A stretch of DNA of 64,000 nucleotides, from positions 886,247 through 950,246 of the forward strand of contig CM082594.2 of the NCBI GenBank assembly GCA_040954595.2. The letters run 5' to 3'. The position numbers were made by a program, and so were the translations under genes. The notes below the pieces were generated by a model. It saw only the letters and a list, made by a program, of their open reading frames with translations. It did no database searches and was not told where the DNA came from. Each line of letters starts with the position of its first letter. Position 1 is the first letter of the stretch. Source of the stretch: Balanoglossus misakiensis. Its lineage: Eukaryota > Animalia > Hemichordata. Below, in pieces: positions 18,001 to 44,000 of this stretch.

Positions 18001-19703
18001 TTAGGTCACCACTTCATAAGTGTTCTTACCCGTCATTGGCACAAACAGTCTCAGGAAGTAAGCTTTCAGCCTACCAATGTAGCTATTATATTTTCCACTT
18101 TTTGTAAGTGAAGCCTGACTGTCGCCTGTCTTAGGTCACCACTTCATAAGCGGTCTTACCCGTCATTGGCACATACAGTCTCAGGAAGTTAGCTTTCAGC
18201 CTACCAATGTAGCTATTATATTTTCCACTTTTTGTAAGTGAAGCCTTACTGTCGCCTGTCTTAGGTTACCACTTCATAAGAGGTCTTACCCGTCATTGGC
18301 ACAAACAGTCTCAGGAAGTAAGCTTTCAGCCTACCAATGTAGCTATTGTATTTTCCACTTTTTGTAAGTGAAGCCTGACTGTCGCCTGTCTTAGGTCACC
18401 ACTTCATAAGAGGTCTTACCCGTCATTGGCACAAACAGACAGGAAGTAAGCTTTCAGCCTACCAATGTAGCTTTTGTATTTTCAACTGTTTGTAAGTGAA
18501 GCCTGACTGTCGCCTGTCTTAGGTCACCACTTCATAAGCGGTCTTACCCGTCATTGGCACAAACAGTCTCAGGAAGTAAGCTTTCAGCCTACCAATGTAG
18601 CTATTGTATTTTCCACTTTTTGTAAGTGAAGCCTGACTGTTGCCTGTCTTAGGTCACCACTTCATAAGTGTTCTTACCCGTCATTGGCACAAACAGTCTC
18701 AGGAAGTAAGCTTTCAGCCTACCAATGTAGCTATTATATTTTCCACTTTTTGTAAGTGAAGCCTGACTGTCGCCTGTCTTAGGTCACCACTTCATAAGCG
18801 GTCTTACCCGTCATTGGCACAAACAGTCTCAGGAAGTTAGCTTTCAGCCTACCAATGTAGCTATTATATTTTCCACTTTTTGTAAGTGAAGCCTGACTGT
18901 CGCCTGTCTTAGGTCACCACTTCATAAGAGGTCTTACCCGTCATTGGCACAAACAGTCTCAGGAAGTAAGCTTTCAGCCTACCAATGTAGCTATTGTATT
19001 TTCAACTTTTTGTAAGTGAAGCCTGACTGTCGCCTGTCTTAGGTCACCACTTCATAAGAGGTCTTACCCGTCATTGGCACAAACAGACAGGAAATAAGCT
19101 TTCAGCCTACCAATGTAGCTATTGTATTTTCCACTTTTTGTAAGTGAAGTCTGACTGTCGCCTGTCTTAGGTCACCACTTCATAAGAGGTCTTACCCGTC
19201 ATTGGCACAAACAGTCTCAGGAAGTAAGCTTTCAGCCTACCAATGTAGCTATTATATTTTCCACTTTTTGTAAGTGAAGCCTGACTGTCGCCTGTCTTAG
19301 GTCACCACTTCATAAGCGGTCTTACCCGTCATTGGCACAAACAGTCTCAGGAAGTAAGCTTTCAGCCTACCAATGTAGCTATTGTATTTTCCACTTTTTG
19401 TAAGTGAAGCCTGACTGTCGGCTGTCTTAGGTCACCACTTCATAAGCGGTCTTACCCGTCATTGGCACAAACAGTCTCAGGAAGTAAGCTTTCAGCCTAC
19501 CAATGTAGCTATTGTATTTTCCACTTTTTGTAAGTGAAGCCTGACTGTCGCCTGTCTTAGGTCACCACTTCATAAGTGTTCTTACCCGTCATTGGCACAA
19601 ACAGTCTCAGGAAGTAAGCTTTCAGCCTACCAATGTAGCTATTATATTTTCCACTTTTTGTAAGTGAAGCCTGACTGTCGCCTGTCTTAGGTCACCACTT
19701 CAT
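1..19703. repeat. 130-bp tandem satellite array, domain A
   Basis: Monomer CCCGTCATTGGCACAAACAGTCTCAGGAAGTAAGCTTTCAGCCTACCAATGTAGCTATTATATTTTCCACTTTTTGTAAGTGAAGCCTGACTGTCGCCTGTCTTAGGTCACCACTTCATAAGCGGTCTTA recurs at 1, 131, 261 and onward with few substitutions. A 128-bp variant (AAACAGACAGGAA) recurs on average about every 5 monomers from ~1830. Confidence 0.99.
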
Positions 19704-20184
19704 GAAACAGTATAGAAAACATTTTCCAATTTCCGAAAAGTAGCCGTTTTTTAAACTTTTTTCAAGGAAATTAGTGTTTTGTTCACAGTACAATATATTT
19801 CGATATTTTTCTATGATTATTTTCAAGATGTTTGCGAGTGTGCAGAAAGAAAAGAATAAACTGTGAAATTTCCATAGAAATAATGAAGGAGCCATCTTTA
19901 GGTTGTATGGATTTGAATATTTCATTGAAAAAAACTAATAACTAAATTATGAATTCAATTAATAGTACAATTTGCAAAAAATTGCTAGTCACTCCAGAAG
20001 GGTCAGTGCTTGTAAATGTGAGAGCCTGGAAATTTCCAAGCACTGACAAGGGTCAGTGGTCGGAAATTTCCAGACACTCAGGGAATGTGAGAGCCTGGAA
20101 ATTTCCAAGCACTGACAAGGGTCAGTGGTCGGAAATTTCCAGACACTCAGGGAATGTGAGAGCTTAGAAATTTCCAAGCACTGA
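19704..20184 (+). mobile_element. Truncated copy of the left end of the TIR element (left TIR, AT-rich segment, ~2.5 copies of the 69-bp unit)
   Basis: Matches 22484-22964 apart from one SNP that I saw (CTTGTAAATG vs CTTGGAAATG). It has the same CACTTCAT|GAAACAGT junction and ends abruptly at GCACTGA|AGGAAGTAAGC back into satellite. Confidence 0.93.
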
Positions 20185-22483
20185 AGGAAGTAAGCTTTCA
20201 GCCTACCAATGTAGCTATTGTATTTTCCACTTTTTGTAAGTGAAGCCTGACTGTCGCCTGTCTTAGGTCACCACTTCATAAGAGGTCTTACCCGTCATTG
20301 GCACAAACAGTCTCAGGAAGTAAGCTTTCAGCCTACCAATGTAGCTATTATATTTTCCACTTTTTGTAAGTGAAGCCTGACTGTCGCCTGTCTTAGGTCA
20401 CCACTTCATAAGAGGTCTTACCCGTCATTGGCACAAACAGACAGGAAGTAAGCTTTCAGCCTACCAATGTAGCTTTTGTATTTTCAACTGTTTGTAAGTG
20501 AAGCCTGACTGTCGCCTGTCTTAGGTCACCACTTCATAAGAGGTCTTACCCGTCATTGGCACAAACAGTCTCAGGAAGTAAGCTTTCAGCCTACCAATGT
20601 AGCTATTATATTTTCCACTTTTTGTAAGTGAAGCCTGACTGTCGCCTGTCTTAGGTCACCACTTCATAATCGGTCTTACCCGTCATTGGCACAAACAGTC
20701 TCAGGAAGTAAGCTTTCAGCCTACCAATGTAGCTATTGTATTTTCCACTTTTTGTAAGTGAAGCCTGACTGTCGCCTGTCTTAGGTCACCACTTCATAAG
20801 CGGTCTTACCCGTCATTGGCACAAACAGTCTCAGGAAGTAAGCTTTCAGCCTACCAATGTAGCTATTGTATTTTCCACTTTTTGTAAGTGAAGCCTGACT
20901 GTCGCCTGTCTTAGGTCACCACTTCATAAGTGTTCTTACCCGTCATTGGCACAAACAGTCTCAGGAAGTAAGCTTTCAGCCTACCAATGTAGCTATTATA
21001 TTTTCCACTTTTTGTAAGTGAAGCCTGACTGTCGCCTGTCTTAGGTCACCACTTCATAAGCGGTCTTACCCGTCATTGGCACATACAGTCTCAGGAAGTT
21101 AGCTTTCAGCCTACCAATGTAGCTATTATATTTTCCACTTTTTGTAAGTGAAGCCTTACTGTCGCCTGTCTTAGGTCACCACTTCATAAGAAGTCTTACC
21201 CGTCATTGGCACAAACAGTCTCAGGAAGTAAGCTTTCAGCCTACCAATGTAGCTATTGTATTTTCAACTTTTTGTAAGTGAAGCCTGACTGTCGCCTGTC
21301 TTAGGTCACCACTTCATAAGAGGTCTTACCCGTCATTGGCACAAACAGACAGGAAGTAAGCTTTCAGCCTACCAATGTAGCTTTTGTATTTTCAACTGTT
21401 TGTAAGTGAAGCCTGACTGTCGCCTGTCTTAGGTCACCACTTCATAAGCGGTCTTACCCGTCATTGGCACAAACAGTCTCAGGAAGTAAGCTTTCAGCCT
21501 ACCAATGTAGCTATTGTATTTTCCACTTTTTGTAAGTGAAGCCTGACTGTTGCCTGTCTTAGGTCACCACTTCATAAGTGTTCTTACCCGTCATTGGCAC
21601 AAACAGTCTCAGGAAGTAAGCTTTCAGCCTACCAATGTAGCTATTATATTTTCCACTTTTTGTAAGTGAAGCCTGACTGTCGCCTGTCTTAGGTCACCAC
21701 TTCATAAGCGGTCTTACCCGTCATTGGCACAAACAGTCTCAGGAAGTTAGCTTTCAGCCTACCAATGTAGCTATTGTATTTTCCACTTTTTGTAAGTGAA
21801 GCCTGACTGTCGCCTGTCTTAGGTCACCACTTCATAAGAGGTCTTACCCGTCATTGGCACAAACAGTCTCAGGAAGTAAGCTTTCAGCCTACCAATGTAG
21901 CTATTGTATTTTCAACTTTTTGTAAGTGAAGCCTGACTGTCGCCTGTCTTAGGTCACCACTTCATAAGAGGTCTTACCCGTCATTGGCACAAACAGACAG
22001 GAAATAAGCTTTCAGCCTACCAATGTAGCTATTGTATTTTCCACTTTTTGTAAGTGAAGTCTGACTGTCGCCTGTCTTAGGTCACCACTTCATAAGAGGT
22101 CTTACCCGTCATTGGCACAAACAGTCTCAGGAAGTAAGCTTTCAGCCTACCAATGTAGCTATTATATTTTCCACTTTTTGTAAGTGAAGCCTGACTGTCG
22201 CCTGTCTTAGGTCACCACTTCATAAGCGGTCTTACCCGTCATTGGCACAAACAGTCTCAGGAAGTAAGCTTTCAGCCTACCAATGTAGCTATTGTATTTT
22301 CCACTTTTTGTAAGTGAAGCCTGACTGTCGGCTGTCTTAGGTCACCACTTCATAAGCGGTCTTACCCGTCATTGGCACAAACAGTCTCAGGAAGTAAGCT
22401 TTCAGCCTACCAATGTAGCTATTATATTTTCCACTTTTTGTAAGTGAAGCCTGACTGTCGCCTGTCTTAGGTCACCACTTCAT
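20185..22483. repeat. 130-bp satellite block between the two TIR-element copies (domain A variants)
   Basis: Same monomer. The order of variants parallels ~17275-19703. Confidence 0.98.
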
Positions 22484-22485
22484 GA

Positions 22486-22519
22486 AACAGTATAGAAAAC
22501 ATTTTCCAATTTCCGAAAA
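22486..22519 (+). repeat. Left TIR (34 bp) AACAGTATAGAAAACATTTTCCAATTTCCGAAAA
   Basis: Exact reverse complement of 25322-25355. A second copy lies at 19706-19739. Confidence 0.95.
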
Positions 22520-22777
22520 GTAGCCGTTTTTTAAACTTTTTTCAAGGAAATTAGTGTTTTGTTCACAGTACAATATATTTCGATATTTTTCTATGATTAT
22601 TTTCAAGATGTTTGCGAGTGTGCAGAAAGAAAAGAATAAACTGTGAAATTTCCATAGAAATAATGAAGGAGCCATCTTTAGGTTGTATGGATTTGAATAT
22701 TTCATTGAAAAAAACTAATAACTAAATTATGAATTCAATTAATAGTACAATTTGCAAAAAATTGCTAGTCACTCCAG

Positions 22778-23464
22778 AAGGGTCAGTGCTTGGAAATGTG
22801 AGAGCCTGGAAATTTCCAAGCACTGACAAGGGTCAGTGGTCGGAAATTTCCAGACACTCAGGGAATGTGAGAGCCTGGAAATTTCCAAGCACTGACAAGG
22901 GTCAGTGGTCGGAAATTTCCAGACACTCAGGGAATGTGAGAGCTTAGAAATTTCCAAGCACTGACAAGGGTCAGTGGTCGGAAATTTCCAGACACTCAGG
23001 GAATGTGAGAGCCTGGAAATTTCCAAGCACTGACAAGGGTCAGTGGTCGGAAATTTCCAGACACTCAGGGAATGTGAGAGCCTGGAAATTTCCAAGCACT
23101 GACAAGGGTCAGTGGTCGGAAATTTCCAGACACTCAGGGAATGTGAGAGCTTAGAAATTTCCAAGCACTGACAAGGGTCAGTGGTCGGAAATTTCCAGAC
23201 ACTCAGGGAATGTGAGAGCCTAGAAATTTCCAAGCACTGACAGGGTTAGTGGCCGGAAATATCCAGTCACTCGGGGAATGTGAGAGCCTGGAAATTTCCA
23301 AGCACTGACAGGGTCAGTGGCCGGAAATATCCAGACACTCAGGGAATGTGAGAGCTTAGAAATTTCCAAGCACTGACAGGGTCAGTGGTCGGAAATTTCC
23401 AGACACTCGGGGAATGTGAGAGCCTGGAAATTTCCAAGCATTGACAGGGTCAGTGCTTGGAAAT
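22778..23464 (+). repeat. Left internal tandem array, ~10 copies of a 69-bp unit
   Basis: Unit GGGAATGTGAGAGCCTGGAAATTTCCAAGCACTGACAAGGGTCAGTGGTCGGAAATTTCCAGACACTCA recurs at 22861, 22930, 22999 and onward. The inner copies are 68 bp and more diverged. Confidence 0.96.
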
Positions 23465-23465
23465 C

Positions 23466-23620
23466 TTGAGTTTCTCTATCATGTTTCAAATTATGGCCTT
23501 TAGGAAAACGATCTGTTGAGGAACTTCGCCTGTATTTATATCTTCAACCCTACGGATGAGTTTGGTCGTTTGACTGCGGTGGCCTCTTCTGCTGTTCTTC
23601 TCTCTCTCCATGCCCGACAT
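23466..23620 (-). pseudogene. Putative BEL/Pao gag N-terminal fragment
   Basis: An ATG overlapping the PBS end (CCAGG-ATG) reads MSGMEREKNSRRGHRSQTTKLIRRVEDINTGEVPQQIVFLKAII*NMIEKLK. The RxGHRxxxTKL pattern resembles BEL/Pao Gag N-termini as I recall them (not database-checked). It is cut off by the 69-bp array. Confidence 0.5.
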
Positions 23621-23636
23621 CCTGGTCTCGGCACCA
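23619..23636 (-). other. Putative tRNA-His primer-binding site (TGGTGCCGAGACCAGGAT)
   Basis: An 18-nt TGG-initiated motif on the minus strand, 5 nt after a ...GGTACA LTR-like 3' end. The plus strand ATCCTGGTCTCGGCACCA resembles a tRNA-His 3' end (..CACGGCACCA). Confidence 0.65.
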
Positions 23637-23641
23637 ACAAA

Positions 23642-23904
23642 TGTACCGCGTACACTTGGGAATAGGTTCGGAATGAAGAGAGAGGGGCGGGATGGCCAAT
23701 ACTTCTTTATATACAGTGGTTTGAACTGTGACATTTGGTAACACTGCATAATTCAAGAACAATAGCATTTGGTAGTTGTGAAGTTGTGACTTTGTATACA
23801 GAGTAGAAAGAACAATTGTGTCAGATAAACAATACCAATTCCCAATAAACAACTAGTGTATGGGCTAACTCAGAGGAGTTGGTAGGCGAAGCCTGTCATG
23901 AACA
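23642..23904 (-). mobile_element. Putative 5' LTR remnant upstream of the PBS (far boundary uncertain; could extend to ~24351)
   Basis: The minus strand ends in ACA just before the PBS, with a TATATAAAG polyA/TATA-like motif ~60 nt upstream. Candidate TGT starts are at 23904 or 24351. There is no second LTR in the window to confirm it. Confidence 0.35.
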
Positions 23905-23914
23905 TTGTGACGCT

Positions 23915-24302
23915 AAGGCTCCTTAGACAAACCTGGTGCGTCTGCGGTCCAGATCCGTACCAGAGCTTTTCGCCGAAATTCGTTTTTATCGGGAGAATAT
24001 CCTTTCCCTGTCTACTAACCGGTTATAACTGCGATTGACTTCTTCTAACATCCGAACCGCTCGCTTTCTGAAACTTTTGTGTTTACCCATTGAGATAACC
24101 TCACTGTATTCAATATGGCGATCTCAACAGGTAAACACAAGAGAAAATCAGAAAGCGAGCGGCTCGGAAGTTAATTACATCATATTTGGAGTCATTTGTG
24201 GGTAGACGGGGGAAAGATTCCCCCCGATAAAATCCAATCTCGGCCGAAAAGCTGCTGTCCGGATCCGGATCTCAGACGAATCAGTTTTGTCCATGGAGCC
24301 TT
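23915..24302. repeat. ~390-bp imperfect palindrome (diverged MITE-like foldback) inside the TIR element
   Basis: The arms pair as AAGGCTCC/GGAGCCTT, AGCTTTTCG/CGAAAAGCT, TTTTATCGGG/CCCGATAAAA, CCGCTCGCTTTCTGA/TCAGAAAGCGAGCGG, TTGTGTTTACC/GGTAAACACAA and TTGAGAT/ATCTCAA around a 24-nt loop (24097-24120). Confidence 0.88.
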
Positions 24303-24370
24303 GCAGAGATGTGGTGGAAGCCGTGTATTAAACGCCGGGAGAACGCAGACATGTACGGAGGACTACCACG

Positions 24371-24830
24371 ACCCTGTCAGTGCTTGGAAAGTTCAAGGCT
24401 CTCACATTCCCTGAGTGTCTGGAAATTTCCGACCACTGACCCTTGTCTGTGCTTGGAAATTTCTAAGCTCTCACATTCCCTGAGTGTTTGGAAATTTCCG
24501 ACCACTGACCCTTGTCAGTGCTTGGAAATTTCCAGGCTCTCATATTCCCTGAGTGTCTGGAAATTTCCGACCACTGACCCTTGTCAGTGCTTGGAAATTT
24601 CCAGGCTCTCACATTCCCTGAGTGTCTGGAAATTTCCGACCACTGACCCTTGTCAGTGCTTGGAAATTTCCAGGCTCTCACATTCCCTGAGTGTCTGGAA
24701 ATTTCCGACCACTGACCCTTGTCAGTGCTTGGAAATTTCCAGACTCTCACATTCCCTGAGTGTCTGGAAATTTCCGACCACTGACCCTTGTCAGTACTTG
24801 GAAATTTCCAAGCTCTCACATGCCACTGAC
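24371..24830 (-). repeat. Right internal tandem array, ~7 copies of the 69-bp unit in inverted orientation
   Basis: Reverse complement of the left array (CTCTCACATTCCCTGAGTGTCTGGAAATTTCCGACCACTGACCCTTGTCAGTGCTTGGAAATTTCC), period 69. Confidence 0.96.
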
Positions 24831-25321
24831 TCTTTCCAAGTATTTTAGCCGCAAAATATGGATTTGTCAATGAGCAGTGCTTATTTCCTAAAATTCATAC
24901 GAAATCCAACGGATTTGTGTGATACGGATATTAATCTAACAATTCTTGTAATAAATATTGGGTTTCAGATTTACTTTTTGATGCTATTGTTTTTTCTGGC
25001 GAAATTTTACAAACAATTCACACACTTGCAAATTTTCAATAGAAATATTACTCATGATAAACATGGAGACAAAATTTCATTAGAAAAAAATCAAAAGGAC
25101 TGTCATGTACGTGGCTTTGAAGGAGACTCAGTTTTTTCACAGATAAATTTTAATTTTAGTTTAAAGCCAAAATATGACAAAATGCATTTTTCCTGCTGTA
25201 CAGCTGCAGGAAAGAGACTAAGAATACCATTATGTAATTTTTTCATTAGAAATTGGCAAAGAATGGGGAATATTTTCATAAATTTCTAACTTTTTCAGCA
25301 GTAATTATGTAAAAAAGAGGT

Positions 25322-25355
25322 TTTTCGGAAATTGGAAAATGTTTTCTATACTGTT
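25322..25355 (-). repeat. Right TIR (34 bp)
   Basis: TTTTCGGAAATTGGAAAATGTTTTCTATACTGTT, followed directly by satellite ATAAGCGG. Confidence 0.95.
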
Positions 25356-28300
25356 ATAAGCGGTCTTACCCGTCATTGGCACATACAGTCTCAGGAAGTT
25401 AGCTTTCAATCTACCAATGTAGCTATTATATTTTCCACTTTTTGTAAGTGAAGCCTGACTGTCGCCTGTCTTAGGTCACCACTTCATAAGAGGTCTTACC
25501 CGTCATTGGCACAAACAGTCTCAGGAAGTAAGCTTTCAGCCTACCAATGTAGCTATTGTATTTTCAACTTTTTGTAAGTGAAGCCTGACTGTCGCCTGTC
25601 TTAGGTCACCACTTCATAAGAGGTCTTACCCGTCATTGGCACAAACAGACAGGAAGTAAGCTTTCAGCCTACCAATGTAGCTTTTGTATTTTCAACTGTT
25701 TGTAAGTGAAGCCTGACTGTCGCCTGTCTTAGGTCACCACTTCATAAGAGGTCTTACCCGTCATTGGCACAAACAGTCTCAGGAAGTAAGCTTTCAGCCT
25801 ACCAATGTAGCTATTATATTTTCCACTTTTTGTAAGTGAAGCCTGAGTGTCGCCTGTCTTAGGTCACCACTTCATAAGAGGTCTTACCCGTCATTGGCAC
25901 AAACAGTCTCAGGAAGTAAGCTTTCAGCCTACCAATGTAGCTATTGTATTTTCAACTTTTTGTTAGTGAAGCCTGACTGTTGCCTGTCTTAGGTCACCAC
26001 TTCATAAGAGGTCTTACCCGTCATTGTCACAAACAGACTCAGGAAGTAAGCTTTCAGCCTACCAATGTAGCTATTGTATTTTCAACTTTTTGTAAGTGAA
26101 GCCTGACTGTCGCCTGTCTTAGGTCACCACTTCATAAGAGGTCTTACCCGTCATTGGCACAAACAGTCTCCGGAAGTAAGCTTTCAGCCTACCAATGTAG
26201 CTATTGTATTTTCCACTTTTTGTAAGTGAAGCCTGACTATCACCTGTCTTAGGTCACCACTTCATAAGCGGTCTTACCCGTCATTGGCACAAACAGTCTC
26301 AGGAAGTAAGCTTTCAGCCTACCAATGTAGCTATTATATTTTCCACTTTTTGTAAGTGAAGCCTGACTGTCGCCTGTCTTAGTTCACCACTTCATAAGCG
26401 GTCTTACCCGTCATTGGCACAAACAGTCTCAGGAATTAAGCTTTCAGCATACCAATGTAGCTATTATATTTTCCACTTTTTGTAAGTGAAGCCTGACTGT
26501 CGCCTGTCTTAGGTCACCACCTCATAAGCGGTCTTACCCGTCATTGCCACAAACAGTCTCAGGAAGTTAGCTTTCAGCCTACCAATGAAGCTATTATATT
26601 TTCCACTTTTTGTAAGTGAAGCCTGACTGTCGCCTGTCTTAGGTCACCGACTCATAAGCGGTCTTACCCGTCATTGGCACAAACAGTCTCAGGAAGTAAG
26701 CTTTCAGCCTACCAATGTAGCTATTATATTTTCCACTTTTTGTAAGTGAAGCCTGACTGTCGCCTGTCTTAGGTCACCACTTCATAAGCGGTCTTACCCG
26801 TCATTGGCACAAACAGTCTCAGGAAGTAAGCTTTCAGCCTACCAATGTAGCTATTGTATTTTCCACTTTTTGTAAGTGAAGCCTGACTGTCGCCTGTCTT
26901 AGGTCACTACTTTATAAGCGGTCTTACCCGTCATAGGCACAAACAGTCTCGGGAAGCAAGCTTTCAGCCTACCAATGTAGCTATTGTATTTTCCACTTTT
27001 TGTAAGTGAAGCCTGACTGTCGCCTTTCTTAGGTCACCACTTCATAAGAGGTCTTACCCGTCATTGGCACAAACAGTCTCAGGAAGTAAGCTTTCAGCCT
27101 ACCAATGTAGCTATTATATTTTCTACTTTTTGTAAGTGAAGCCTGACTGTCGCCTGTCTTAGGTCACCTCTTCATAAGCGGTCTTACCCGTCATTGGCAC
27201 AAACAGTCTCAGGAAGTAAGCTTTCAGCCTACCAATGTAGCTATTAAATGTTTTACTTTTTGTAAGTGAAGCCTGACTGTCGCCTGTCTTAGGTCACCAC
27301 CTCATAAGCGGTCTTACCCGTCATTGGCACAAACAGTCTCAGGAAGTAAGCTTTCAGCCTACCAATGTAGCTATTATATTTTCCACTTTTTATAAGTGAA
27401 GCCTGACTGTCGCCTGTCTTAGGTCACCACTTCATAAGCGGTCTTACCCGTCATTGGCACAAACAGTCTCAGGAAGTAAGCTTTCAGCCTACCAATGTAG
27501 CTATTATATTTTCCACTTTTTGTAAGTGAAGCCTGACTGTCACCTGTCTTAGGTCACCACTTCATAAGTGGTCTTACCCGTCATTGGCACAAACAGTCTC
27601 AGGAAGTAAGCTTTCAGCCTACCAATGTAGCTATTGTATTTTCCACTTTTTGTAAGTGAAGCCTGACTGTCGCCTGTCTTAGGTCACCACTTCATAAGCG
27701 GTCTTACCCGTCATAGGCACAAACAGTCTCAGGAAGTAAGCTTTCAGCCTACCAATGTAGCTATTATATTTTCCACTTTTTGTAAGTGAAGCCTGACTGT
27801 CGCCTGTCTTAGGTCACCACTTCATAAGAGGTCTTACCCGTCATTGGCACAAACAGTCTCAGGAAGTAAGCTTTCAGCCTACCAATGTAGCTATTGTATT
27901 TTCAACTTTTTGTAAGTGAAGCCTGAGTGTCGCCTGTCTTAGGTCACCACTTCATAAGAGGTCTTACCCGTCATTGGCACAAACAGTCTCAGGAAGTAAG
28001 CTTTCAGCCTACCAATGTAGCTATTGTATTTTCAACTTTTTGTAAGTGAAGCCTGACTGTCGCCTGTCTTAGGTCACCACTTCATAAGAGGTCTTACCCG
28101 TCATTGGCACAAACAGACTCAGGAAGTAAGCTTTCAGCCTACCAATGTAGCTATTGTATTTTCAACTTTTTGTAAGTGAAGCCTGACTGTCGCCTGTCTT
28201 AGGTCACCACTTCATAAGAGGTCTTACCCGTCATTGGCACAAACAGTCTCCGGAAGTAAGCTTTCAGCCTACCAATGTAGCTATTGTATTTTCCACTTTT

Positions 28301-31300
28301 TGTAAGTGAAGCCTGACTGTCGCCTGTCTTAGGTCACCACTTCATAAGCGGTCTTACCCGTCATTGGCACAAACAGTCTCAGGAAGTAAGCTTTCAGCCT
28401 ACCAATGTAGCTATTATGTTTTCCACTTTTTGTAAGTGAAGCCTGACTGTCGCCTGTCTTAGTTCACCACTTCATAAGCGGTCTTACCCGTCATTGGCAC
28501 ATACAGTCTCAGGAATTAAGCTTTCAGCATACCAATGTAGCTATTATATTTTCCACTTTTTGTAAGTGAAGCCTGACTGTCGCCTGTCTTAGGTCACCAC
28601 CTCATAAGCGGTCTTACCCGTCATTGGCACAAACAGTCTCAGGAAGTTAGCTTTCAGCTTACCAATGAAGCTATTGTATTTTCCACTTTTTGTAAGTGAA
28701 GCCTGACTGTCGCCTGTCTTAGGTCACCACTTCATAAGCGGTCTTACCCGTCATTGGCACAAACAGTCTCAGGAAGTAAGCTTTCAGCCTACCAATGTAG
28801 CTATTATGTTTTCCACTTTTTGTAAGTGAAGCCTGACTGTCGCCTGTCTTAGTTCACCACTTCATAAGCGGTCTTACCCGTCATTGGCACAAACAGTCTC
28901 AGGAATTAAGCTTTCAGCATACCAATGTAGCTATTATATTTTCCACTTTTTGTAAGTGAAGCCTGACTGTCGCCTGTCTTAGGTCACCACTTCATAAGCG
29001 GTCTTACCCGTCATTGGCACAAACAGTCTCAGGAAGTTAGCTTTCAGCTTACCAATGAAGCTATTATATTTTCCACTTTTTGTAAGTGAAGCCTGACTGT
29101 CGCCTGTCTTAGGTCACCGACTCATAAGCGGTCTTACCCGTCATTGGCACAAACAGTCTCAGGAAGTAAGCTTTCAGCCTACCAATGTAGCTATTATATT
29201 TTCCACTTTTTGTAAGTGAAGCCTGACTGTCGCCTGTCTTAGGTCACCACTTCATAAGCGGTCTTACCTGTCATTGGCACAAACAGTCTCAGGAAGTAAG
29301 CTTTCAGCCTACCAATGTAGCTATTATATTTTCCACTTTTTGTAAGTGAAGCCTGACTGTCGCCTGTCTTAGGTCACCACTTCATAAGCGGTCTTACCCG
29401 TCATTGGCACAAACAGTCTCAGGAAGTAAGCTTTCAGCCTACCAATGTAGCTATTGTATTTTCCACTTTTTGTAAGTGAAGCCTGACTGTCGCCTGTCTT
29501 AGGTCACCACTTTATAAGCGGTCTTACCCGTCATAGGCACAAACAGTCTCGGGAAGTAAGCTTTCAGCCTACCAATGTAGCTATTGTATTTTCCACTTTT
29601 TGTAAGTGAAGCCTGACTGTCGCCTTTCTTAGGTCACCACTTCATAAGAGGTCTTACCCGTCATTGGCACAAACAGTCTCAGGAAGTAAGCTTTCAGCCT
29701 ACCAATGTAGCTATTATGTTTTCCACTTTTTGTAAGTGAAGCCTGACTGTCGCCTGTCTTAGTTCACCACTTCATAAGCGGTCTTACCCGTCATTGGCAC
29801 AAACAGTCTCAGGAATTAAGCTTTCAGCATACCAATGTGGCTATTATATTTTCCACTTTTTGTAAGTGAAGCCTGACTGTCGCCTGTCTTAGGTCACCAC
29901 TTCATAAGAGGTCTTACCCGTCATTGGCACAAACAGTCTCAGGAAGTTAGCTTTCAGCCTACCAATGAAGCTATTGTATTTTCAACTTTTTGTAAGTGAA
30001 GCCTGAGTGTCGCCTGTCTTAGGTCACCACTTCATAAGAGGTCTTACCCGTCATTGGCACAAACAGACTCAGGAAGTAAGCTTTCAGCCTACCAATGTAG
30101 CTATTGTATTTTCAACTTTTTGTAAGTGAAGCCTGACTGTCGCCTGTCTTAGGTCACCACTTCATAAGAAGTCTTACCCGTCATTGGCACAAACAGTCTC
30201 CGGAAGTAAGCTTTCAGCCTACCAATGTAGCTATTGTATTTTCCACTTTTTGTAAGTGAAGCCTGACTGTCGCCTGTCTTAGGTCACCACTTCATAAGCG
30301 GTCTTACCCGTCATTGGCACAAACAGTCTCAGGAAGTAAGCTTTCAGCCTACCAATGTAGCTATTATGTTTTCCACTTTTTGTAAGTGAAGCCTGACTGT
30401 CGCCTGTCTTAGTTCACCACTTCATAAGCGGTCTTACCCGTCATTGGCACAAACAGTCTCAGGAATTAAGCTTTCAGCATACCAATGTAGCTATTATATT
30501 TTCCACTTTTTGTAAGTGAAGCCTGACTGTCGCCTGTCTTAGGTCACCACCTCATAAGCGGTCTTACCCGTCATTGGCACAAACAGTCTCAGGAAGTTAG
30601 CTTTCAGCTTACCAATGAAGCTATTATATTTTCCACTTTTTGTAAGTGAAGCCTGACTGTCGCCTGTCTTAGGTCACCGACTCATAAGCGGTCTTACCCG
30701 TCATTGGCACAAACAGTCTCAGGAAGTAAGCTTTCAGCCTACCAATGTAGCTATTATATTTTCCACTTTTTGTAAGTGAAGCCTGACTGTCGCCTGTCTT
30801 AGGTCACCACTTCATAAGCGGTCTTACCCGTCATTGGCACAAACAGTCTCAGGAAGTAAGCTTTCAGCCTACCAATGTAGCTATTGTATTTTCCACTTTT
30901 TGTAAGTGAAGCCTGACTGTCGCCTGTCTTAGGTCACCACTTTATAAGCGGTCTTACCCGTCATAGGCACAAACAGTCTCGGGAAGTAAGCTTTCAGCCT
31001 ACCAATGTAGCTATTGTATTTTCCACTTTTTATAAGTGAAGCCTGACTGTCGCCTTTCTTAGGTCACCACTTCATAAGAGGTCTTACCCGTCATTGGCAC
31101 AAACAGTCTCAGGAAGTAAGCTTTCAGCCTACCAATGTAGCTATTATGTTTTCCACTTTTTGTAAGTGAAGCCTGACTGTCGCCTGTCTTAGTTCACCAC
31201 TTCATAAGCGGTCTTACCCGTCATTGGCACAAACAGTCTCAGGAATTAAGCTTTCAGCATACCAATGTAGCTATTATATTTTCCACTTTTTGTAAGTGAA

Positions 31301-34300: not shown

Positions 34301-37300
34301 CGCCTGTCTTAGGTCACCACTTCATAAGAGGTCTTACCCGTCATTGGCACAAACAGTCTCAGGAAGTAAGCTTTCAGCCTACCAATGTAGCTATTGTATT
34401 TTCAACTTTTTGTAAGTGAAGCCTGACTGTCGCCTGTCTTAGGTCACCACTTCATAAGAGGTCTTACTCGTCATTGGCACAAACAGACTCAGGACGTAAG
34501 CTTTCAGCCTACCAATGTAGCTATTGTATTTTCCACTTTTTGTAAGTGAAGTCTGACTGTCGCCTGTCTTAGGTCACCACTTCATAAGAGGTCTTACCCG
34601 TCATTGGCACAAACAGTCTCAGGAAGTAAGCTTTCAGCCTACCAATGTAGCTATTGTATTTTCCACTTTTTGTAAGTGAAGCCTGACTGTCGCCTGTCTT
34701 AGGTCACCACTTCATAAGAGGTCTTACCCGTCATTGGCACAAACAGTCTCAGGAAGTAAGCTTTCAGCCTACCAATGTAGCTATTATATTTTCCACTTTT
34801 TGTAAGTGAAGCCTGACTGTCGCCTGTCTTAGGTCACCACTTCATAAGTGTTCTTACCCGTCATTGGCACAAACAGTCTCAGGAAGTAAGCTTTCAGCCT
34901 ACCAATATAGCTATTATATTTTCCACTTTTTGTAAGTGAAGCCTGACTGTCGCCTGTCTTAGGTCACCACTTCATAAGAGGTCTTACCCGTCATTGGCAC
35001 AAACAGTCTCAGGAAGTAAGCTTTCAGCCTACCAATGTAGCTATTATATTTTCCACTTTTTGTAAGTGAAGCCTGACTGTCGCCTGTCTTAGGTCACCAC
35101 TTCATAAGCGGTCTTACCCGTCATTGGCACAAACAGTCTCAGGAAGTTAGCTTTCAGCCTACCAATGTAGCTATTATATTTTCCACTTTTTGTAAGTGAA
35201 GCCTGACTGTCGCCTGTCTTAGGTCACCACTTCATAAGAGGTCTTACCCGTCATTGGCACAAACAGTCTCAGGAAGTAAGCTTTCAGCCTACCAATGTAG
35301 CTATTGTATTTTCCACTTTTTGTAAGTGAAGTCTGACTGTCGCCTGTCTTAGGTCACCACTTCATAAGAGGTCTTACCCGTCATTGGCACAAACAGTCTC
35401 AGGAAGTAAGCTTTCAGCCTACCAATGTAGCTATTGTATTTTCCACTTTTTGTAAGTGAAGCCTGACTGTCGCCTGTCTTAGGTCACCACTTCATAAGAG
35501 GTCTTACCCGTCATTGGCACAAACAGTCTCAGGAAGTAAGCTTTCAGCCTACCAATGTAGCTATTATATTTTCCACTTTTTGTAAGTGAAGCCTGACTGT
35601 CGCCTGTCTTAGGTCACCACTTCATAAGTGTTCTTACCCGTCATTGGCACAAACAGTCTCAGGAAGTAAGCTTTCAGCCTACCAATATAGCTATTATATT
35701 TTCCACTTTTTGTAAGTGAAGCCTGACTGTCGCCTGTCTTAGGTCACCACTTCATAAGCGGTCTTACCCGTCATTGGCACAAACAGTCTCAGGAAGTTAG
35801 CTTTCAGCCTACCAATGTAGCTATTGTATTTTCCACTTTTTGTAAGTGAAGCCTGACTGTCGCCTGTCTTAGGTCACCACTTCATAAGAGGTCTTACCCG
35901 TCATTGGCACAAACAGTCTCAGGAAGTAAGCTTTCAGCCTACCAATGTAGCTATTGTATTTTCAACTTTTTGTAAGTGAAGCCTGACTGTCGCCTGTCTT
36001 AGGTCACCACTTCATAAGAGGTCTTACTCGTCATTGGCACAAACAGACTCAGGACGTAAGCTTTCAGCCTACCAATGTAGCTATTGTATTTTCCACTTTT
36101 TGTAAGTGAAGTCTGACTGTCGCCTGTCTTAGGTCACCACTTCATAAGAGGTCTTACCCGTCATTGGCACAAACAGTCTCAGGAAGTAAGCTTTCAGCCT
36201 ACCAATGTAGCTATTGTATTTTCCACTTTTTGTAAGTGAAGCCTGACTGTCGCCTGTCTTAGGTCACCACTTCATAAGAGGTCTTACCCGTCATTGGCAC
36301 AAACAGTCTCAGGAAGTAAGCTTTCAGCCTACCAATGTAGCTATTATATTTTCCACTTTTTGTAAGTGAAGCCTGACTGTCGCCTGTCTTAGGTCACCAC
36401 TTCATAAGTGTTCTTACCCGTCATTGGCACAAACAGTCTCAGGAAGTAAGCTTTCAGCCTACCAATATAGCTATTATATTTTCCACTTTTTGTAAGTGAA
36501 GCCTGACTGTCGCCTGTCTTAGGTCACCACTTCATAAGAGGTCTTACCCGTCATTGGCACAAACAGTCTCAGGAAGTAAGCTTTCAGCCTACCAATGTAG
36601 CTATTATATTTTCCACTTTTTGTAAGTGAAGCCTGACTGTCGCCTGTCTTAGGTCACCACTTCATAAGCGGTCTTACCCGTCATTGGCACAAACAGTCTC
36701 AGGAAGTTAGCTTTCAGCCTACCAATGTAGCTATTATATTTTCCACTTTTTGTAAGTGAAGCCTGACTGTCGCCTGTCTTAGGTCACCACTTCATAAGAG
36801 GTCTTACCCGTCATTGGCACAAACAGTCTCAGGAAGTAAGCTTTCAGCCTACCAATGTAGCTATTGTATTTTCAACTTTTTGTAAGTGAAGCCTGACTGT
36901 CGCCTGTCTTAGGTCACCACTTCATAAGAGGTCTTACCCGTCATTGGCACAAACAGACTCAGGAAGTAAGCTTTCAGCCTACCAATGTAGCTATTGTATT
37001 TTCAACTTTTTGTAAGTGAAGCCTGACTGTCGCCTGTCTTAGGTCACCACTTCATAAGAGGTCTTACCCGTCATTGGCACAAACAGTCTCAGGAAGTAAG
37101 CTTTCAGCCTACCAATGTAACTATTGTATTTTCCACTTTTTGTAAGTGAAGCCTGACTGTCGCCTGTCTTAGGTCACCACTTCATAAGCGGTCTTACCCG
37201 TCATTGGCACAAACAGTCTCAGGAAGTAAGCTTTCAGCCTACCAATGTAGCTATTATATTTTCCACTTTTTGTAAGTGAAGCCTGACTGTCGCCTGTCTT

Positions 37301-37837
37301 AGGTCCCCACCTCACAAGCGGTCTTACCCGTCATTGGCACAAACAGTCTCAGGAAGTTAGCTTTCAGCCTACCAATGAAGCTATTATATTTTCCACTTTT
37401 TGTAAGTGAAGCCTGACTGTCGCCTGTCTTAGGTCACTGACTCATAAGCGGTCTTACCCGTCATTGGCACAAACAGTTGCAGGAAGTAAGCTTTCAGCCT
37501 ACCAATGTAGCTATTATATTTTCCACTTTTTTTGTAAGTGAAGCCTGACTGTCGCCTGTCTTAGGTCACCACTTCATAAGCGGTCTTACCCGTCATTGGC
37601 ACAAACAGTCTCAGGAAGTTAGCTTTCAGCCTACCAATGTAGCTATTATATTTTCCACTTTTTGTAAGTGAAGCCTGACTGTCGCCTGTCTTAGGTCACC
37701 ACTTCATAAGCGGTCTTACCCATCATTGGCACAAACAGTCTCAGGAAGTAAGCTTTCAGCCTACCAATGTAGCTATTGTATTTTCCACTTTTTGTAAGTG
37801 AAGCCTGACTGTCGCCTGTCTTAGGTCACCACTTCAT
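25356..37837. repeat. 130-bp satellite array, domain B
   Basis: Same monomer. The 128-bp variant is last seen at ~25650. Characteristic variants are AGGAATTAAG..CAT, CACCGACTC, TCATAGGCAC and ACTCG..GACGTAAG. Confidence 0.99.
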
Positions 37838-38148
37838 TTACCGTTGCAGAGAAGCTACCGAAATTGCGAAGTGTTTTTGTGAGCCGTCTTACTCCAGATA
37901 CAAGCATTGATCAGGTCAAGACTTTTATTAATGACAAGTGTGGTCCTTCAACATTTCAAGATGGCGTCAAATTGAAAACACGCTATGACACATATTCATC
38001 GTTCAGAATCGATGTTAATGACAGTTGTATTGAAAATGTCCTCTGTCCTGAATTGTGGCCAACAGGAGTTTTCGTGAAACCGTATTATCTCTCGAAGTCG
38101 GAGTTGATCGCAAAGTCTAAGAAAGGTTCGTCACAAGTAGGAATTTAA
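37838..38148 (+). pseudogene. LINE ORF1, C-terminal fragment
   Basis: The frame is open from the satellite junction (TVAEKLPKLRSVFVSRLTPDT...YSSFRI...PELWPTGVFVKPY), and the FVSRL/WPxGV motifs are typical of invertebrate LINE ORF1 C-termini. The predicted TTG start is not a real start. The stop lies 10 nt before the ORF2 ATG. Confidence 0.8.
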
Positions 38149-38158
38149 GAAACTCATA

Positions 38159-40948
38159 ATGGATTCTATTAACATTGCCAGTTACAACTTAAGAGGTTTA
38201 AACTCCTCCCGTGGTTCTCTTGACGTTTTGCTTAATTCTTGTGATATTATCTTGGTTCATATTATCTTGGTTCAAGAGCATTGGCTTGATAAGGAAAAAT
38301 TATCTGTTCTCGGTGCTTTGCATAATGAGTTTACCTCAACATGTGTGAGTGCCATTGACAGTTCACATGGTGTTCTCACCGGCTGACCCTACGGGGGTGT
38401 TGGTATTCTTTGGCGTAAAAATCTTAGTGGTATCTCTCCTATCCTATTTGATGGAGAAAGCCGTGTTGTAGGTATTCGTATTAAAATGTCAGATAAGCCA
38501 GATGTTGTAATTTTCAATGTGTATCTGCCAACTGCAAACTCTGATTGTGATGAATATCAGCGGATCTTAGGCTTGTTACAAGTTACAATCAATGATTTAG
38601 ATACTTGCTGTTGTCTTATTTCTGGCGATTTTAATGCAGACCCAACGAGAAATCAACATGAGTTCACCCTTTTAGATAATTTTGTGAAAGATAATAAGTT
38701 CGTCTTTTCAGACATTGAACGCCTGCCCCCTGAAACGTTTACATATTTAAGTGATTCGTGTTCAGCCAGAAGTTGGCTTGATCACATTATATGCTCATCA
38801 TCGTCTGATACTATAGTTGATTCTGTTAAGGTAAACTATGATTTCATTTCATCTGATCACTTCCCTGTAATGTTCACTTTGAAGACTCATTTGCTACCAA
38901 GGATTAGTATTTCGTCACCAGCTGAAATACATAGTCCTAGTTGGAACAAAGCGTTCTCTTGTCAACTTGAAAACTATAAAGTGTATTGTGATAGACTTTT
39001 ATCTGAAGTTTATATTCCTGTTGAAGCACTAGCATGTACTGATCCAGACTGCTGTATACATTCAGAGTCGATTGACACTTTTTACAATGATATTATTTCT
39101 GTACTTTTAACCGCAGCGGATATGACTCTTCCTAAAATTACACACTCAAATAAGCATGCAATTCCTGGTTGGAATGCTCTAGTCAAAGATTATTATGACA
39201 AAGCTCGCACTGATTTTTTAATCTGGAAGGATAATGGCTCCCCTAAATTTGGTCCCTTCTTTGAACTTATGCGCAGGTCCAGAGCTCAATTTAAAAGGCA
39301 GTTAGCAAATTGTAAGAAGGCAGAAAAAGAAATGCGCGCAAATGCCCTGGCTGTAAAATTAAAGAAAGACTCCAAGGCGTACTGGAAAGATGTCAGTAAA
39401 CGGAAAGGTAGATCAATATCTCCATCATCTATTGATGGTCATTCGGGTGATGTTGAAGTGGTTAATATGTGGAAAGACCATTACGAGAATATTTTGACAA
39501 AAACTGGAAAAGAGTCCGCACCTGATTTTATGAACATTGAGTACTGTGATGACATGATTGTACACCATGAAGAAATTTGTGAATTAATTAAGAACCTTAA
39601 GACAGGTGCATCGTCGGGTATCGACATGGTGTCACCTGAGCACTTGAAGTATGCGCCATACAGAGTCAGTGTTCTACTTTCCCTCTGTTTCACGGCTATG
39701 TTAATTCATGGCATTGTTCCCAAACAATTGATGACTACGGTTTTGGTTCCCATTCCAAAAAACCCAGGTGGTGACATTTGTGACAAATCGAAGTACCGTC
39801 CTGTTGCTGTTGCAACAACGATATCTAAACTGTTAGAGAGAGTTTGGTTAAATCGCTGCATGGATTGTCTAACGACTAGCGAGCACCAGTTTGGATTTAA
39901 ACCAGGCCATGGTACCGATATGTCAATTTTTGTTCTTAAAGAAATTTTGAATTATTACAAGCGTTGTAACACTCCTGTTTTTGTCACTTTTATGGATGCA
40001 TCCAAAGCTTTTGATTATGTTCGTCACGATATTCTCTTTGTAAAATTTTTGGCGAGGGGTGTCAATCCTTATCTCATTAAGATTTTGTCATACATGTATA
40101 GGCACCAAGATTTTGTGGTGAGATGGAATGGGTTGTTATCTAAACCTTTTCACTCAAAGAATGGGGTTAAACAGGGGGGAATTACGTCACCTATATTTTT
40201 CACAGTCTACTTGGATGATATCAGCAAAAATCTTTCCGCTCTTCCGTATGGCTGCCTTGTAGGGGACTATAAGGTTAATCATTTAATTTACGCCGATGAT
40301 TTGGTTATTATATCTACTGGAGCCTATGGCCAGCAGATGCTTGTTGATACTTGTGGTCATTATGGCAGCATTAACTCAATTTTCTTCAATGAGAAAAAAA
40401 CAGTCTGTATGTTAATTCAGCCAAGTATGCGTAGGCTCAGACACGTTCCAATTTATCTGAACGGCCGAATGCTGAATTATGTCAATGTTTATAAATATCT
40501 TGGTCACCTTATCACTTGTGACCTTAGGGATAATGAGGACATTCTAGCTCAAACGCGACAATTTTATGTTCGCGGTAATGCGATTATTCGTGATTTTAAA
40601 TTTGCGTCTATCTCTGTTAAATGTCATTTGTTTTCTGTATTTTGTGATATCCCGTATTGCTCTTACTTATGGAATGCTTTTTCTGTGTGTATTTTTAATG
40701 CAGTTAGGAGAGCTTACTCCCAGGTTTTCCGTAAATTGTCTGGATTTAAACATTCTTTTATTCAGAGCAACAGTGCGATGTTTGTTAATCTTTCCATTTT
40801 AACTTTTGATGAAATACTCCGGAAAAAATCATTCAGCTTTTTAAGCAGACTCCACCTCTCAAGTAATCCACTTGTAGCCAGTGTTTTATCACTATCAGAG
40901 TTCTCAAATAGTGGACTTTGGAAGGTTTGGAGTAGACGATTGTTTTGA
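38159..40948 (+). pseudogene. LINE ORF2 (apurinic endonuclease + reverse transcriptase) with one in-frame stop
   Basis: The 75-aa and 820-aa ORFs are in the same frame (offset 327 nt) and are separated by TGA at 38384-38386 in G*PYGG. APE motifs: SYNLRG, VQEHWL, NVYLP, GDFNAD, LDHI, SDHFPV. RT motifs: YRPVA, QFGFK, DASKAFD, GVKQGGITSP, YADD, YKYLG. Confidence 0.95.
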
Positions 40949-40994
40949 TGTTTTTATGGTATTTTGTTTTGCTATGGATTATTTTATAATCTGA

Positions 40995-41025
40995 AATAAA
41001 GATGAAATAATAATAATAATAATAA
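40995..41025 (+). terminator. LINE 3' end: AATAAA signal and (TAA)6 tail
   Basis: AATAAA at 40995-41000 and TAA x6 at 41008-41025. The last ATAA is shared with the satellite target. Confidence 0.85.
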
Positions 41026-44000
41026 GCGGTCTTACCCGTCATTGCCACAAACAGTCTCAGGAAGTAAGCTTTCAGCCTACCAATGTAGCTATTGTATTTT
41101 CCACTTTTTTGTAAGTGAAGCCTGACTGTCGTCGGTCTTAGGTCACCACTTCATAAGAGGTCTTACCCGTCATTGGCACAAACAGTCTCAGGAAGTAAGC
41201 TTTCAGCCTACCAATGTAGCTATTGTATTTTCCACTTTTTGTAAGTGAAGCCTGACTGTCGCCTGTCTTAGGTCACCACTTCATAAGAGGTCTTACCCGT
41301 CATTGGCACAAACAGTCTCAGGAAGTAAGCTTTCAGCCTACCAATGTAGCTATTATATTTTCCACTTTTTGTAAGTGAAGCCTGACTGTCGCCTGTCTTA
41401 GGTCACCACTTCATAAGAGGTATTACCCGTCATTGGCACAAACAGTCTCAGGAAGTAAGCTTTCAGCCTACCAATGTAGCTATTGTATTTTCCACTTTTT
41501 GTAAGTGAAGCCTGACTGTCGCCTGTCTTAGGTCACCACTTCATGAGCGGTCTTACCCGTCATTGGCAGAAACAGTCTCAGGAAGTAAGCTTTCAGCCTA
41601 CCAATGTAGCTATTATATTTTCCACTTTTTGTAAGTGAAGCCTGACTGTCGCCTGTCTTAGGTCACCACTTCATAAGAGGTCTTACCCGTCATTGGCACA
41701 AACAGTCTCAGGAAGTAAGCTTTCAGCCTACCAATGTAGCTATTGTATTTTCCACTTTTTGTAAGTGAAGCCTGACTGTCGCCTGTATTAGGTCACCACT
41801 TCATAAGCGTTCTTACCCGTCATTGGCACAAACAGTCTCAGGAAGTAAGCTTTCAGACTACCAATGTAGCTATTGTATTTTCCACTTTTTGTAAGTGAAG
41901 CCTGACTGTCGCCTGTCTTAGGTCACCACTTCATAAGCGGTCTTACCCGGCATTGGCACAAACAGTCTCCGGAAGTAAGCTTTCAGCCTACCAATGTAGC
42001 TATTATATTTTCCACTTTTTGTAAGTGAAGCCTGACTGTCGCCTGTCTTAGGTCACCACTTCATAAGCGGTCTTACCCGTTATTGGCACAAACAGTCTCA
42101 GGAAGTAAGCTTTCAGCCTACCAATGTAGCTATTATATTTTCCACTTTTTGTAAGTGAAGCCTGACTGTCGCCTGTCTTAGGTCACCACTTCATAAACGG
42201 TCTTACCCGTCATTTGCACAAACAGTCTCAGGAAGTAAGCTTTCAGCCTACCAATGTAGCTATTATATTTTCCACTTTTTGTAAGTGAAGCCTGACTGCC
42301 GCCTGTCTTAGGTCACCACTTAATAAGCGGTCTTACCCGTTATTGGCACAAACAGTCTCAGGAAGTAAGCTTTCAGCCTACCAATGTAGCTATTATATTT
42401 TCCACTTTTTGTAAGTGAAGCCTGGCTGTCGCCTGTCTTAGGTCACCACTTCATAAGCGGTCTTATCCGTCATTGGCACAAACAGTCTCGGGAAGTAAGC
42501 TTTCAGCCTACCAATGTAGCTATTATATTTTCCACTTTTTGTAAGTGAAGCCTGACTGTCGCCTGTCTTAGGTCACCACTTCATAAGCGGTCCTACCCGT
42601 CATTGGCACAAACAGTCTCAGGAAGTAAGCTTTCAGCCTACCAATGTAGCTATTATATTTTCCACTTTTTGTAAGTGAAGCCTGGCTGTCGCCTGTCTTA
42701 GGTCACCACTTCATAAGCGGTCTTATCCGTTATTGGCACAAACAGTCTCGGGAAGTAAGCTTTCAGCCTACCAATGTAGCTATTATATTTTCCACTTTTT
42801 GTAAGTGAAGCCTGACTGTCGCCTGTCTTAGGTCACCACTTTATAAACGGTCTTACCCGTCATTTGCACAAACAGTCTCAGGAAGTAAGCTTTCAGCCTA
42901 CCAATGTAGCTATTATATTTTCCACTTTTTGTAAGTGAAGCCTGACTGTCGCCTGTCTTAGGTCACCACTTCATAAACGGTCTTACCCGTCATTGGCACA
43001 AACAGTCTCAGGAGGTAAGCTTTCAGCCTACCAATGTAGCTATTATATTTTCCACTTTTTGTAAGTGAGGCCTGAGTGTCGCCTGTCTTAGGTCACCACT
43101 TCATAAGAGGTCTTACCCGTCATTGGCGCAAATAGTCTAAGGAAGTAATCTTTCAGCCTACCAATGTAGCTATTATATTTTCCACTTTTTGTAAGTGAAG
43201 CCTGAGTGTCGCCTGTCTTAGGTCACCACTTCATTAGCAGTCATACCCGTCATTGGCACAAACAGTCTCAGGAAGTAAGCTTCCAGCCTTCCGATGTAGC
43301 TATTATATTTTCCACTTTTTGTAAGTGAAGCCTGACTGTCGCCTGTCTTAGGTCAACACTTCATAAGCGGTCTTACCCGTTATTGGCACAAACAGTCTCA
43401 GGAAGTAAGCTTTCAGCCTACCAATGTAGCTATTATATTTTCCACTTTTTGTAAGTGAAGCCTGGCTGTCGCCTGTCTTAGGTCACCACTTCATAAGCGG
43501 TCTTATCCGTCATTGGCACAAACAGTCTCGGGAAGTAAGCTTTCAGCCTACCAATGTAGCTATTATATTTTCCACTTTTTGTAAGTGACGCCTGAGTGTC
43601 GCCTGTCTTAGGTCACCACTTCATAAGAGGTCTTACCCGTCATTGGCGCAAATAGTCTAAGGAAGTAATCTTTCAGCCTACCAATGTAGCTATTATATTT
43701 TCCACTTTTTGTAAGTGAAGCCTGAGTGTCGCCTGTCTTAGGTCACCACTTCATTAGCAGTCATACCCGTCATTGGCACAAACAGTCTCAGGAAGTAAGC
43801 TTCCAGCCTACCGATGTAGCTATTATATTTTCCACTTTTTGTAAGTGAAGCCTGACTGTCGCCTGTCTTAGGTCACCACTTCATAAGCGGTCTTACCCGT
43901 TATTGGCACAAACAGTCTCAGGAAGTAAGCTTTCAGCCTACCAATGTAGCTATTATATTTTCCACTTTTTGTAAGTGAAGCCTGGCTGTCGCCTGTCTTA

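What the first reader, a model, noticed from the sequence alone, without database searches (positions are those of the whole stretch)
22480..41030. Two unrelated mobile elements inserted at the identical nucleotide of the satellite monomer
Seen: the TIR element (left junction CACTTCAT|GAAACAG at 22483, right CTGTT|ATAAGCGG at 25356) and the LINE (left CACTTCAT|TTACCG at 37837, right ..TA|ATAAGCGG at 41022) both leave the monomer after T119 and rejoin at ATAAGCGG. One is presumably cut-and-paste and the other uses target-primed reverse transcription. Inference: the site may be a structural or chromatin hotspot (linker of a phased nucleosome, base of a hairpin, recurrent nick or break), or both families may be satellite-targeted. 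Caveat: there are only two independent events, ATAA occurs once per plus-strand monomer, and a (TAA)n-tailed LINE can pick it by simple tail annealing.
Basis: partly seen in the sequence, partly recalled or inferred. Interest (0 to 1): 0.8.

Follow-up and report, generated by a model that had tools for sequence, protein, structure and literature searches.

The report
Two transposons share one satellite ATAA
Two unrelated jumping genes sit in the same four-base word (ATAA) of a 130-base satellite repeat, but copies of the DNA transposon, and likely of the retrotransposon, also lie outside the satellite and a third element likely entered it elsewhere, so this is likely an ordinary overlap of their A/T target preferences rather than a special landing site.

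Summary
Both insertions are real and overlap ATAA at monomer 118-121, but 'identical nucleotide' does not hold as stated. The DNA element's perfect 34-bp inverted ends start at 22486, not 22484; the best parse is a 4-bp duplication (ATGA left, ATAA right). Contigs of public runs show the DNA element beside non-satellite DNA (7 contigs in 5 of 14 rows shown), the LINE as a likely dispersed, 5'-truncated family, and a likely third element at monomer 103-105. With the few usable A/T words in the monomer, two such elements would share a word 6-21% of the time. Satellite targeting is not supported. A mild hotspot stays open at about 0.25. No genome was held, so insertions could not be counted across the array. 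Earlier notes of this scan report other transposons in satellites of this genome, none on this coincidence.

The parts
1..63999 (+). 130-bp satellite array with higher-order variant patterns, host of the insertions
19702..19705 (+). left flank ATGA (monomer 118-121 with A120G) of the truncated copy
19706..20184 (+). truncated left end of the DNA element; rejoins the satellite at monomer position 25; likely duplicate of the 22486 insertion, cut by a deletion
   Evidence: 1 difference in 481 bp
22482..22485 (+). left copy of the inferred 4-bp target duplication, ATGA
22486..22519 (+). left terminal inverted repeat, 34 bp, perfect
22795..23464 (+). 69-bp tandem array, 9.8 copies, inside the DNA element
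23915..24302 (.). diverged 388-bp foldback (72% self-complementary), likely an older nested element
24365..24829 (-). 69-bp tandem array, 6.8 copies, opposed to the first
25322..25355 (-). right terminal inverted repeat, 34 bp
25356..25359 (+). right copy of the inferred target duplication, ATAA (monomer 118-121)
37837..37837 (+). T shared by satellite (T119) and LINE: 1-bp microhomology at the 5' truncation
   Evidence: record 1 and loose end at 37837
37838..38148 (+). 3' remnant of a likely LINE ORF1 (no Pfam match)
38159..40948 (+). LINE ORF2: APE-type endonuclease plus reverse transcriptase; one in-frame TGA at codon 76 and a 15-bp duplication
41008..41025 (+). (TAA)6 tail; its last four bases ATAA are also monomer 118-121
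37828..37834 (+). left arm (monomer 110-116) of the imperfect dyad centred on A118; right arm is monomer 120-126; present in most monomers

Best explanation
Two unrelated elements sit in the same ATAA word of the satellite monomer, likely through independent insertions that each picked one of the monomer's few A/T-rich words by its own sequence preference. The non-coding DNA element likely moved by cut-and-paste with a borrowed transposase, made a 4-bp staggered cut and duplicated ATAA; the left copy later changed to ATGA, and a local duplication plus deletion likely made the truncated second copy. The LINE likely nicked the bottom strand at the same word, primed on its TAA tail where the tail matches ATAA, stopped early in ORF1 and joined through a 1-bp microhomology with little or no duplication. 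Shown: sequences, ends, microhomologies, non-satellite flanks of the DNA element. Inferred: cut positions, tail annealing, order of events.
For: All 5 loose-end rows just outside the DNA element's end (of 14 rows shown, 9 not shown; 7 contigs) lie on nothing in a stretch that held two monomers, and all 5 read A/T then T after the end, 4 of 5 with TA in the middle (2 of the 5 rows are mixed consensus of two contigs). LINE depth rises from about 90 near the 5' end to about 800-1300 near the 3' end in X1; a longer copy runs 914 bases further 5'; 5 further X1 loose ends look unlike the monomer by eye. The monomer offers 8-15 words for the DNA element and 3-10 for the LINE tail; chance of the same word is 0.06-0.21, and of at least one shared word among three elements 0.26-0.37. 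Two X2 contigs show matching 26-bp inverted ends around a duplicated TTA at monomer 103-105, though TAA at 119-121 was one of 6 such words. The variant order of monomers continues across the DNA element. Short duplications, blunt joins, target truncations and 5' microhomology are described for LINEs (PMC4245944, PMC2666801, passages).
Against: The shared word lies at the loop of 1 of only 3 dyads with 7-bp arms in the monomer and at the strongest 21-nt bottom-strand hairpin of 130 positions (-3.6 to -3.8 kcal/mol); 4% of TA sites in 1000 shuffles have such a dyad within 2 bp. All three sites lie within a 15.5-bp arc, chance 0.06-0.10. The LINE's best tail match is at 56-61 on the minus strand, not here. 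The target motif rests on 5 rows and was chosen after seeing them. The tool skipped the tail region, so no 3' flank of another LINE copy was seen. The third element is seen only in X2, which looks like a proximity-ligation library.
Confidence: 0.62

Rival explanations
1. A mild shared hotspot: the imperfect dyad centred on A118, or an exposed segment at about monomer 100-125 such as a phased linker, raises insertion there for several unrelated families on top of their sequence preferences. The bottom-strand hairpin loop would offer a nick or free end when the DNA is unwound.
For: Dyad and hairpin position; the bottom strand is the one a plus-oriented LINE would nick first (established priming mechanism); three sites within 15.5 bp, chance 0.06-0.10; the LINE passed over a longer tail match. 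One of the five possible LINE priming positions coincides with the inferred bottom-strand cut of the DNA element (cut polarity recalled).
Against: Whole-monomer folding is unremarkable on the plus strand (z -0.44, -0.58) and weak on the minus strand (z -1.22, -2.19). Dyads of this size are common: 66% of shuffles hold at least one. The hairpin is too weak to form in intact duplex (inference). Only 2 events at the word and 1 elsewhere. No chromatin data.
Confidence: 0.25
2. One or both families are targeted to this satellite by sequence or by centromeric chromatin, as R2 is to one rDNA position or Tal1 to CENH3 arrays.
For: Both window copies are in the satellite. Precedents exist (PMC5932611, PMC11735389, passages). 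The share of copies inside the satellite was not measured.
Against: 7 contigs show non-satellite flanks for the DNA element; LINE loose ends look unlike the monomer; only 2 independent insertions in about 440 monomers; the DNA element has no long reading frame in its unique parts.
Confidence: 0.05
3. The LINE piece was not retrotransposed here but was joined by repair or recombination through microhomology, or the LINE marks an assembly join between two array blocks.
For: The longer copy has 0 differences over 37837-38485, so it shares the stop codon and the 15-bp duplication. Variant spectra differ across the LINE: 91G is 3% on the left and 40% on the right. No listed contig bridges the junctions.
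Against: 5' truncation plus intact tail is the usual retrotransposition product; the monomer register is kept to within 3 bases across the LINE, which a random join would seldom give.
Confidence: 0.08

Closest known systems
Kolobok non-autonomous elements, e.g. Xenopus T2-MITE Xmix/Xstir (PMC9587614, PMC6004289; passages)
   Same: RR...YY ends (AA...TT), inferred 4-bp duplication, no transposase, amplified internal tandem repeat
   Different: Kolobok is TTAA-specific; here TTAA appears in 1 of 5 flank rows (a mixed consensus) and the window site is ATAA. Ends are AAC, not AGG. No transposase was available to test.
APE-type LINEs with short-repeat tails: zebrafish ZfL2-1/ZfL2-2 (PMC4245944, PMC2666801; passages); RTEX clade (resemblance recalled)
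   Same: APE plus RT, 5' truncation with microhomology, very short or no duplication, short-repeat tail
   Different: Clade not established. Best hit 79% over 73% of ORF2, the rest at most 38%; none of the 106 hits carries a clade name.
Site-specific or centrophilic elements: R1/R2 in rDNA (PMC5932611), Tal1 in CENH3 arrays (PMC11735389)
   Same: Mobile elements inside a tandem array; reuse of one position of a repeat unit
   Different: Those are single families with encoded targeting. Here two unrelated families with copies elsewhere meet at a generic four-base word.
Repeated use of one site through insertion-site preference, Drosophila TE dimers (PMC5932611, passages)
   Same: Sequence preference alone brings insertions to the same site far more often than uniform placement would
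   Different: There it is one family at one locus; here two families in different monomers 15 kb apart.

Membership tests
Kolobok | RR...YY termini | tested here: met
   ends AA...TT; feature from PMC9587614
Kolobok | 4-bp target duplication | tested here: inconclusive
   ATGA/ATAA, 3 of 4 match, one locus; other copies seen on one side only
Kolobok | TTAA-specific target | tested here: not met
   window site ATAA; TTAA in 1 of 5 flank rows. Not filed as Kolobok.
Kolobok | DDE transposase with THAP and H2CH motifs | not testable with these tools
   unique parts have 3-16 stops per frame; the 2 longest frames scanned had no Pfam match; no autonomous partner available
Tc1/mariner | TA duplication directly outside the inverted repeats | tested here: not met
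   bases next to the repeats are GA left and AT right; contigs end at the repeat edge, against an extra fixed terminal base
Sola and other 4-bp-duplication superfamilies | terminal signature and target word | not tested
   defining paper not held
non-LTR retrotransposon (APE-type LINE) | APE endonuclease plus reverse transcriptase in ORF2 | tested here: met
   RVT_1 1.5e-30 above cut-off; Exo_endo_phos 9.6e-07 above cut-off
non-LTR retrotransposon (APE-type LINE) | simple-repeat 3' tail and 5'-truncated copies | tested here: met
   (TAA)6 tail; depth gradient and longer copy
RTEX clade | RT phylogeny with named RTEX members | not testable with these tools
   no labelled reference among 106 hits; assignment is recalled only
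RTEX clade | substantial ORF1, unlike RTE | tested here: inconclusive
   open frame of about 100 codons before ORF2 and 914 more bases in a longer copy, not read; contrast from PMC3905857
site-specific or satellite-targeted element | copies confined to the target repeat | tested here: not met
   non-satellite flanks for the DNA element; weaker, by-eye evidence for the LINE
site-specific or satellite-targeted element | enrichment in the repeat over the genome average | not testable with these tools
   no genome held; contig depth is no copy number

The most novel reading that the evidence does not exclude
A short dyad at monomer 110-126, inside a phased exposed segment of this satellite, draws insertions from a cut-and-paste family, a LINE and a third DNA transposon family alike, so insertion positions modulo 130 would read out the satellite's structure or nucleosome phasing from sequence alone.
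Probability: 0.2. Interest if true: 0.5.

Novelty: already known. Interest (0 to 1): 0.18.

Why it matters
Under the best reading it is ordinary: short A/T target preferences funnel unrelated elements to the same few words of a repeat unit. It is a caution that junction microhomology and one changed base in a target duplication can fake an identical insertion base. If the hotspot reading held, a large satellite would act as a natural replicated target whose insertion map reveals DNA structure or chromatin phasing. Searches returned no paper on two unrelated families at one monomer position (0 papers; 2 papers not on point); the library lacks most subscription journals.

Tried and rejected
No genome is held, so the decisive count was impossible. 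The 19706 copy was rejected as a third independent event. The one metagenome match to a 22-base end motif (L001) is a chance match inside a coding region with no further likeness; rejected. No LINE relative in viral contigs. In one search, 5 of 6 X2 loose-end rows carry GATC or ATC at the joint and were dropped as likely ligation products; the sixth repeats an X1 row. In one search, the loose ends at 25544 (X1) and 25418 (X2) look like diverged monomers or are too short and were not counted; rows at 25269 and 25322 are internal to the element family. A 2-bp AT duplication with a fixed GA end, and a TA duplication with an extra terminal base, were both considered and disfavoured because contigs stop at the repeat edge; they are not strictly excluded. 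Three motif counts failed through a script error and were redone. No six-frame Pfam scan of the DNA element was obtained; only 2 open frames were scanned. A recalled DOI gave an unrelated paper. PMC4455052, PMC3747384, PMC5199201, PMC5753468 and PMC10984392 (passages) gave no per-family target table or per-monomer insertion map. Sequence, word and nearby look-ups of earlier findings were empty. No supplements were read.
Full report
The array. The window is one 130-bp satellite. A monomer built from 269 exact-length units gave 443 hits and three large gaps: 19704-20184, 22484-25355 and 37838-41021. ATAA at monomer 118-121 is intact in 416 of 439 monomers that cover it. No genome is held. An earlier unchecked note calls the host a likely acorn worm; I did not test this.

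The DNA element. It has perfect 34-bp inverted ends at 22486-22519 and 25322-25355, two opposed 69-bp arrays, a nested diverged foldback and 3-16 stops in every frame of its unique parts. The symmetric end is 22486, which leaves ATGA on the left and ATAA on the right: a 4-bp duplication of monomer 118-121 with one transition. A120G occurs in 3 intact monomers of the window too. Contigs support this end: a deep X2 contig and a shallow left-end contig in X5 and X6 (one sample) stop exactly at the repeat edge (records 9, 18, 21), as expected where copies stop sharing sequence. This is an inference from assembly behaviour. The left junction is therefore best placed after position 121, not 119. The order of monomer variants continues across the element, as for a true insertion. 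The copy at 19706 shares the ATGA flank and differs at 1 of 481 bases, so it is likely the same event duplicated and then cut.

The LINE. ORF2 carries an APE-type endonuclease and a reverse transcriptase, with a stop at codon 76. Its 106 database relatives carry no clade name; an RTEX likeness is recalled only. A 1563-base X1 contig matches 37837-38485 without a difference and runs 914 bases further 5', so the window copy is 5'-truncated and T119 belongs to both sides. The (TAA)6 tail ends in ATAA, which is also 118-121. Such short alterations and 5' microhomology are described for zebrafish L2 elements (PMC4245944, PMC2666801; passages).

Are the families dispersed? For the DNA element, yes. 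Of 14 loose-end rows shown (9 not shown), 5 lie just outside its end; they stand for 7 contigs from X1 and X2 (one sample) and fit nothing in a stretch that held two monomers. All 5 read A/T then T; 4 of 5 have TA in the middle. Body contigs have depth about 2300-2400 against 60 for one contig with such a flank, which suggests tens of copies, though the tool warns that depth is no copy number. For the LINE the evidence is weaker. X1 depth climbs from about 90 to about 800-1300 towards the 3' end. Of 12 rows shown (13 not shown), 6 are from X1: the longer copy and 5 joints to sequence unlike the monomer by eye. Five X2 rows were dropped as likely ligation products. The tail region was skipped, so no other 3' target was seen. 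The share of copies inside the satellite is unknown for both families.

A third insertion. Two X2 contigs show 26 foreign bases, reverse complements of each other, leaving after 25473 and returning before 25471: a duplicated TTA at monomer 103-105. A three-base TWA duplication recalls PIF/Harbinger elements (recalled). The site is also a restriction word used in some ligation kits (recalled), but the partner does not begin with such an overhang and both sides carry matching ends, so a real insertion is likely.

Chance. The monomer holds 8, 10 or 15 words for the DNA element, by motif, and 10 words (3 of at least 4 bases) matching the LINE tail on either strand. The chance that both pick one word is 0.06-0.21 over 12 settings, against 0.008 for a uniform exact match. 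With three elements, at least one pair shares a word in 0.26-0.37 of cases. The motifs were chosen after seeing few flanks, so these are rough.

Results against this reading. The three sites lie within 15.5 bp, chance 0.06-0.10. The shared word sits at the loop of an imperfect dyad (arms 110-116 and 120-126, one mismatch), 1 of 3 such dyads in the monomer (shuffle mean 1.4). It gives the best 21-nt bottom-strand hairpin of 130 positions, -3.6 to -3.8 kcal/mol, and only 4% of TA sites in 1000 shuffles have such a dyad within 2 bp. The LINE also passed over a 6-base tail match at 56-61.

Comparison. The DNA element works like a non-autonomous cut-and-paste element with internal tandem repeats, closest to Kolobok T2-MITEs (PMC6004289, PMC9587614; passages), but fails TTAA specificity and is not filed there. 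Targeted elements such as R2 and Tal1 (PMC5932611, PMC11735389; passages) are single families with encoded targeting, unlike this pair. Reuse of one site through sequence preference is documented (PMC5932611).

Verdict. Real insertions, the same four-base word, not shown to be the same base. Most likely a coincidence narrowed by target preference (0.62), with a mild structural or chromatin hotspot as the live rival (0.25). Interest 0.18.

Noticed in passing
window 1-64000: Satellite variant domains change at the insertions: the 2-bp deletion at monomer 23-24 is in 15-17% of monomers left of the DNA element, 1% between the elements and 0% right of the LINE; 91G is 0%, 3% and 40-66%. The insertions may bound homogenisation domains.
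   Followed up: partly
window 23915-24302: A diverged 388-bp foldback nested in the middle of the DNA element.
   Followed up: no
window 37837-38485: A longer LINE copy is identical over 649 bases, so it shares the ORF2 stop codon and the 15-bp duplication; a defective source copy may have spread.
   Followed up: partly
monomer 103-105 (laid at window 25471-25473): Likely third DNA transposon in this satellite elsewhere in the genome, with a TTA duplication and matching 26-bp ends (X2 only).
   Followed up: partly
window 25269-25355: A deep contig shares the last 87 bases of the DNA element but has a different interior: a related subfamily with the same end (record 9).
   Followed up: no
window 20184-20185: The truncated copy rejoins the satellite at monomer position 25 with no clear microhomology, a deletion from inside the 69-bp array.
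   Followed up: partly
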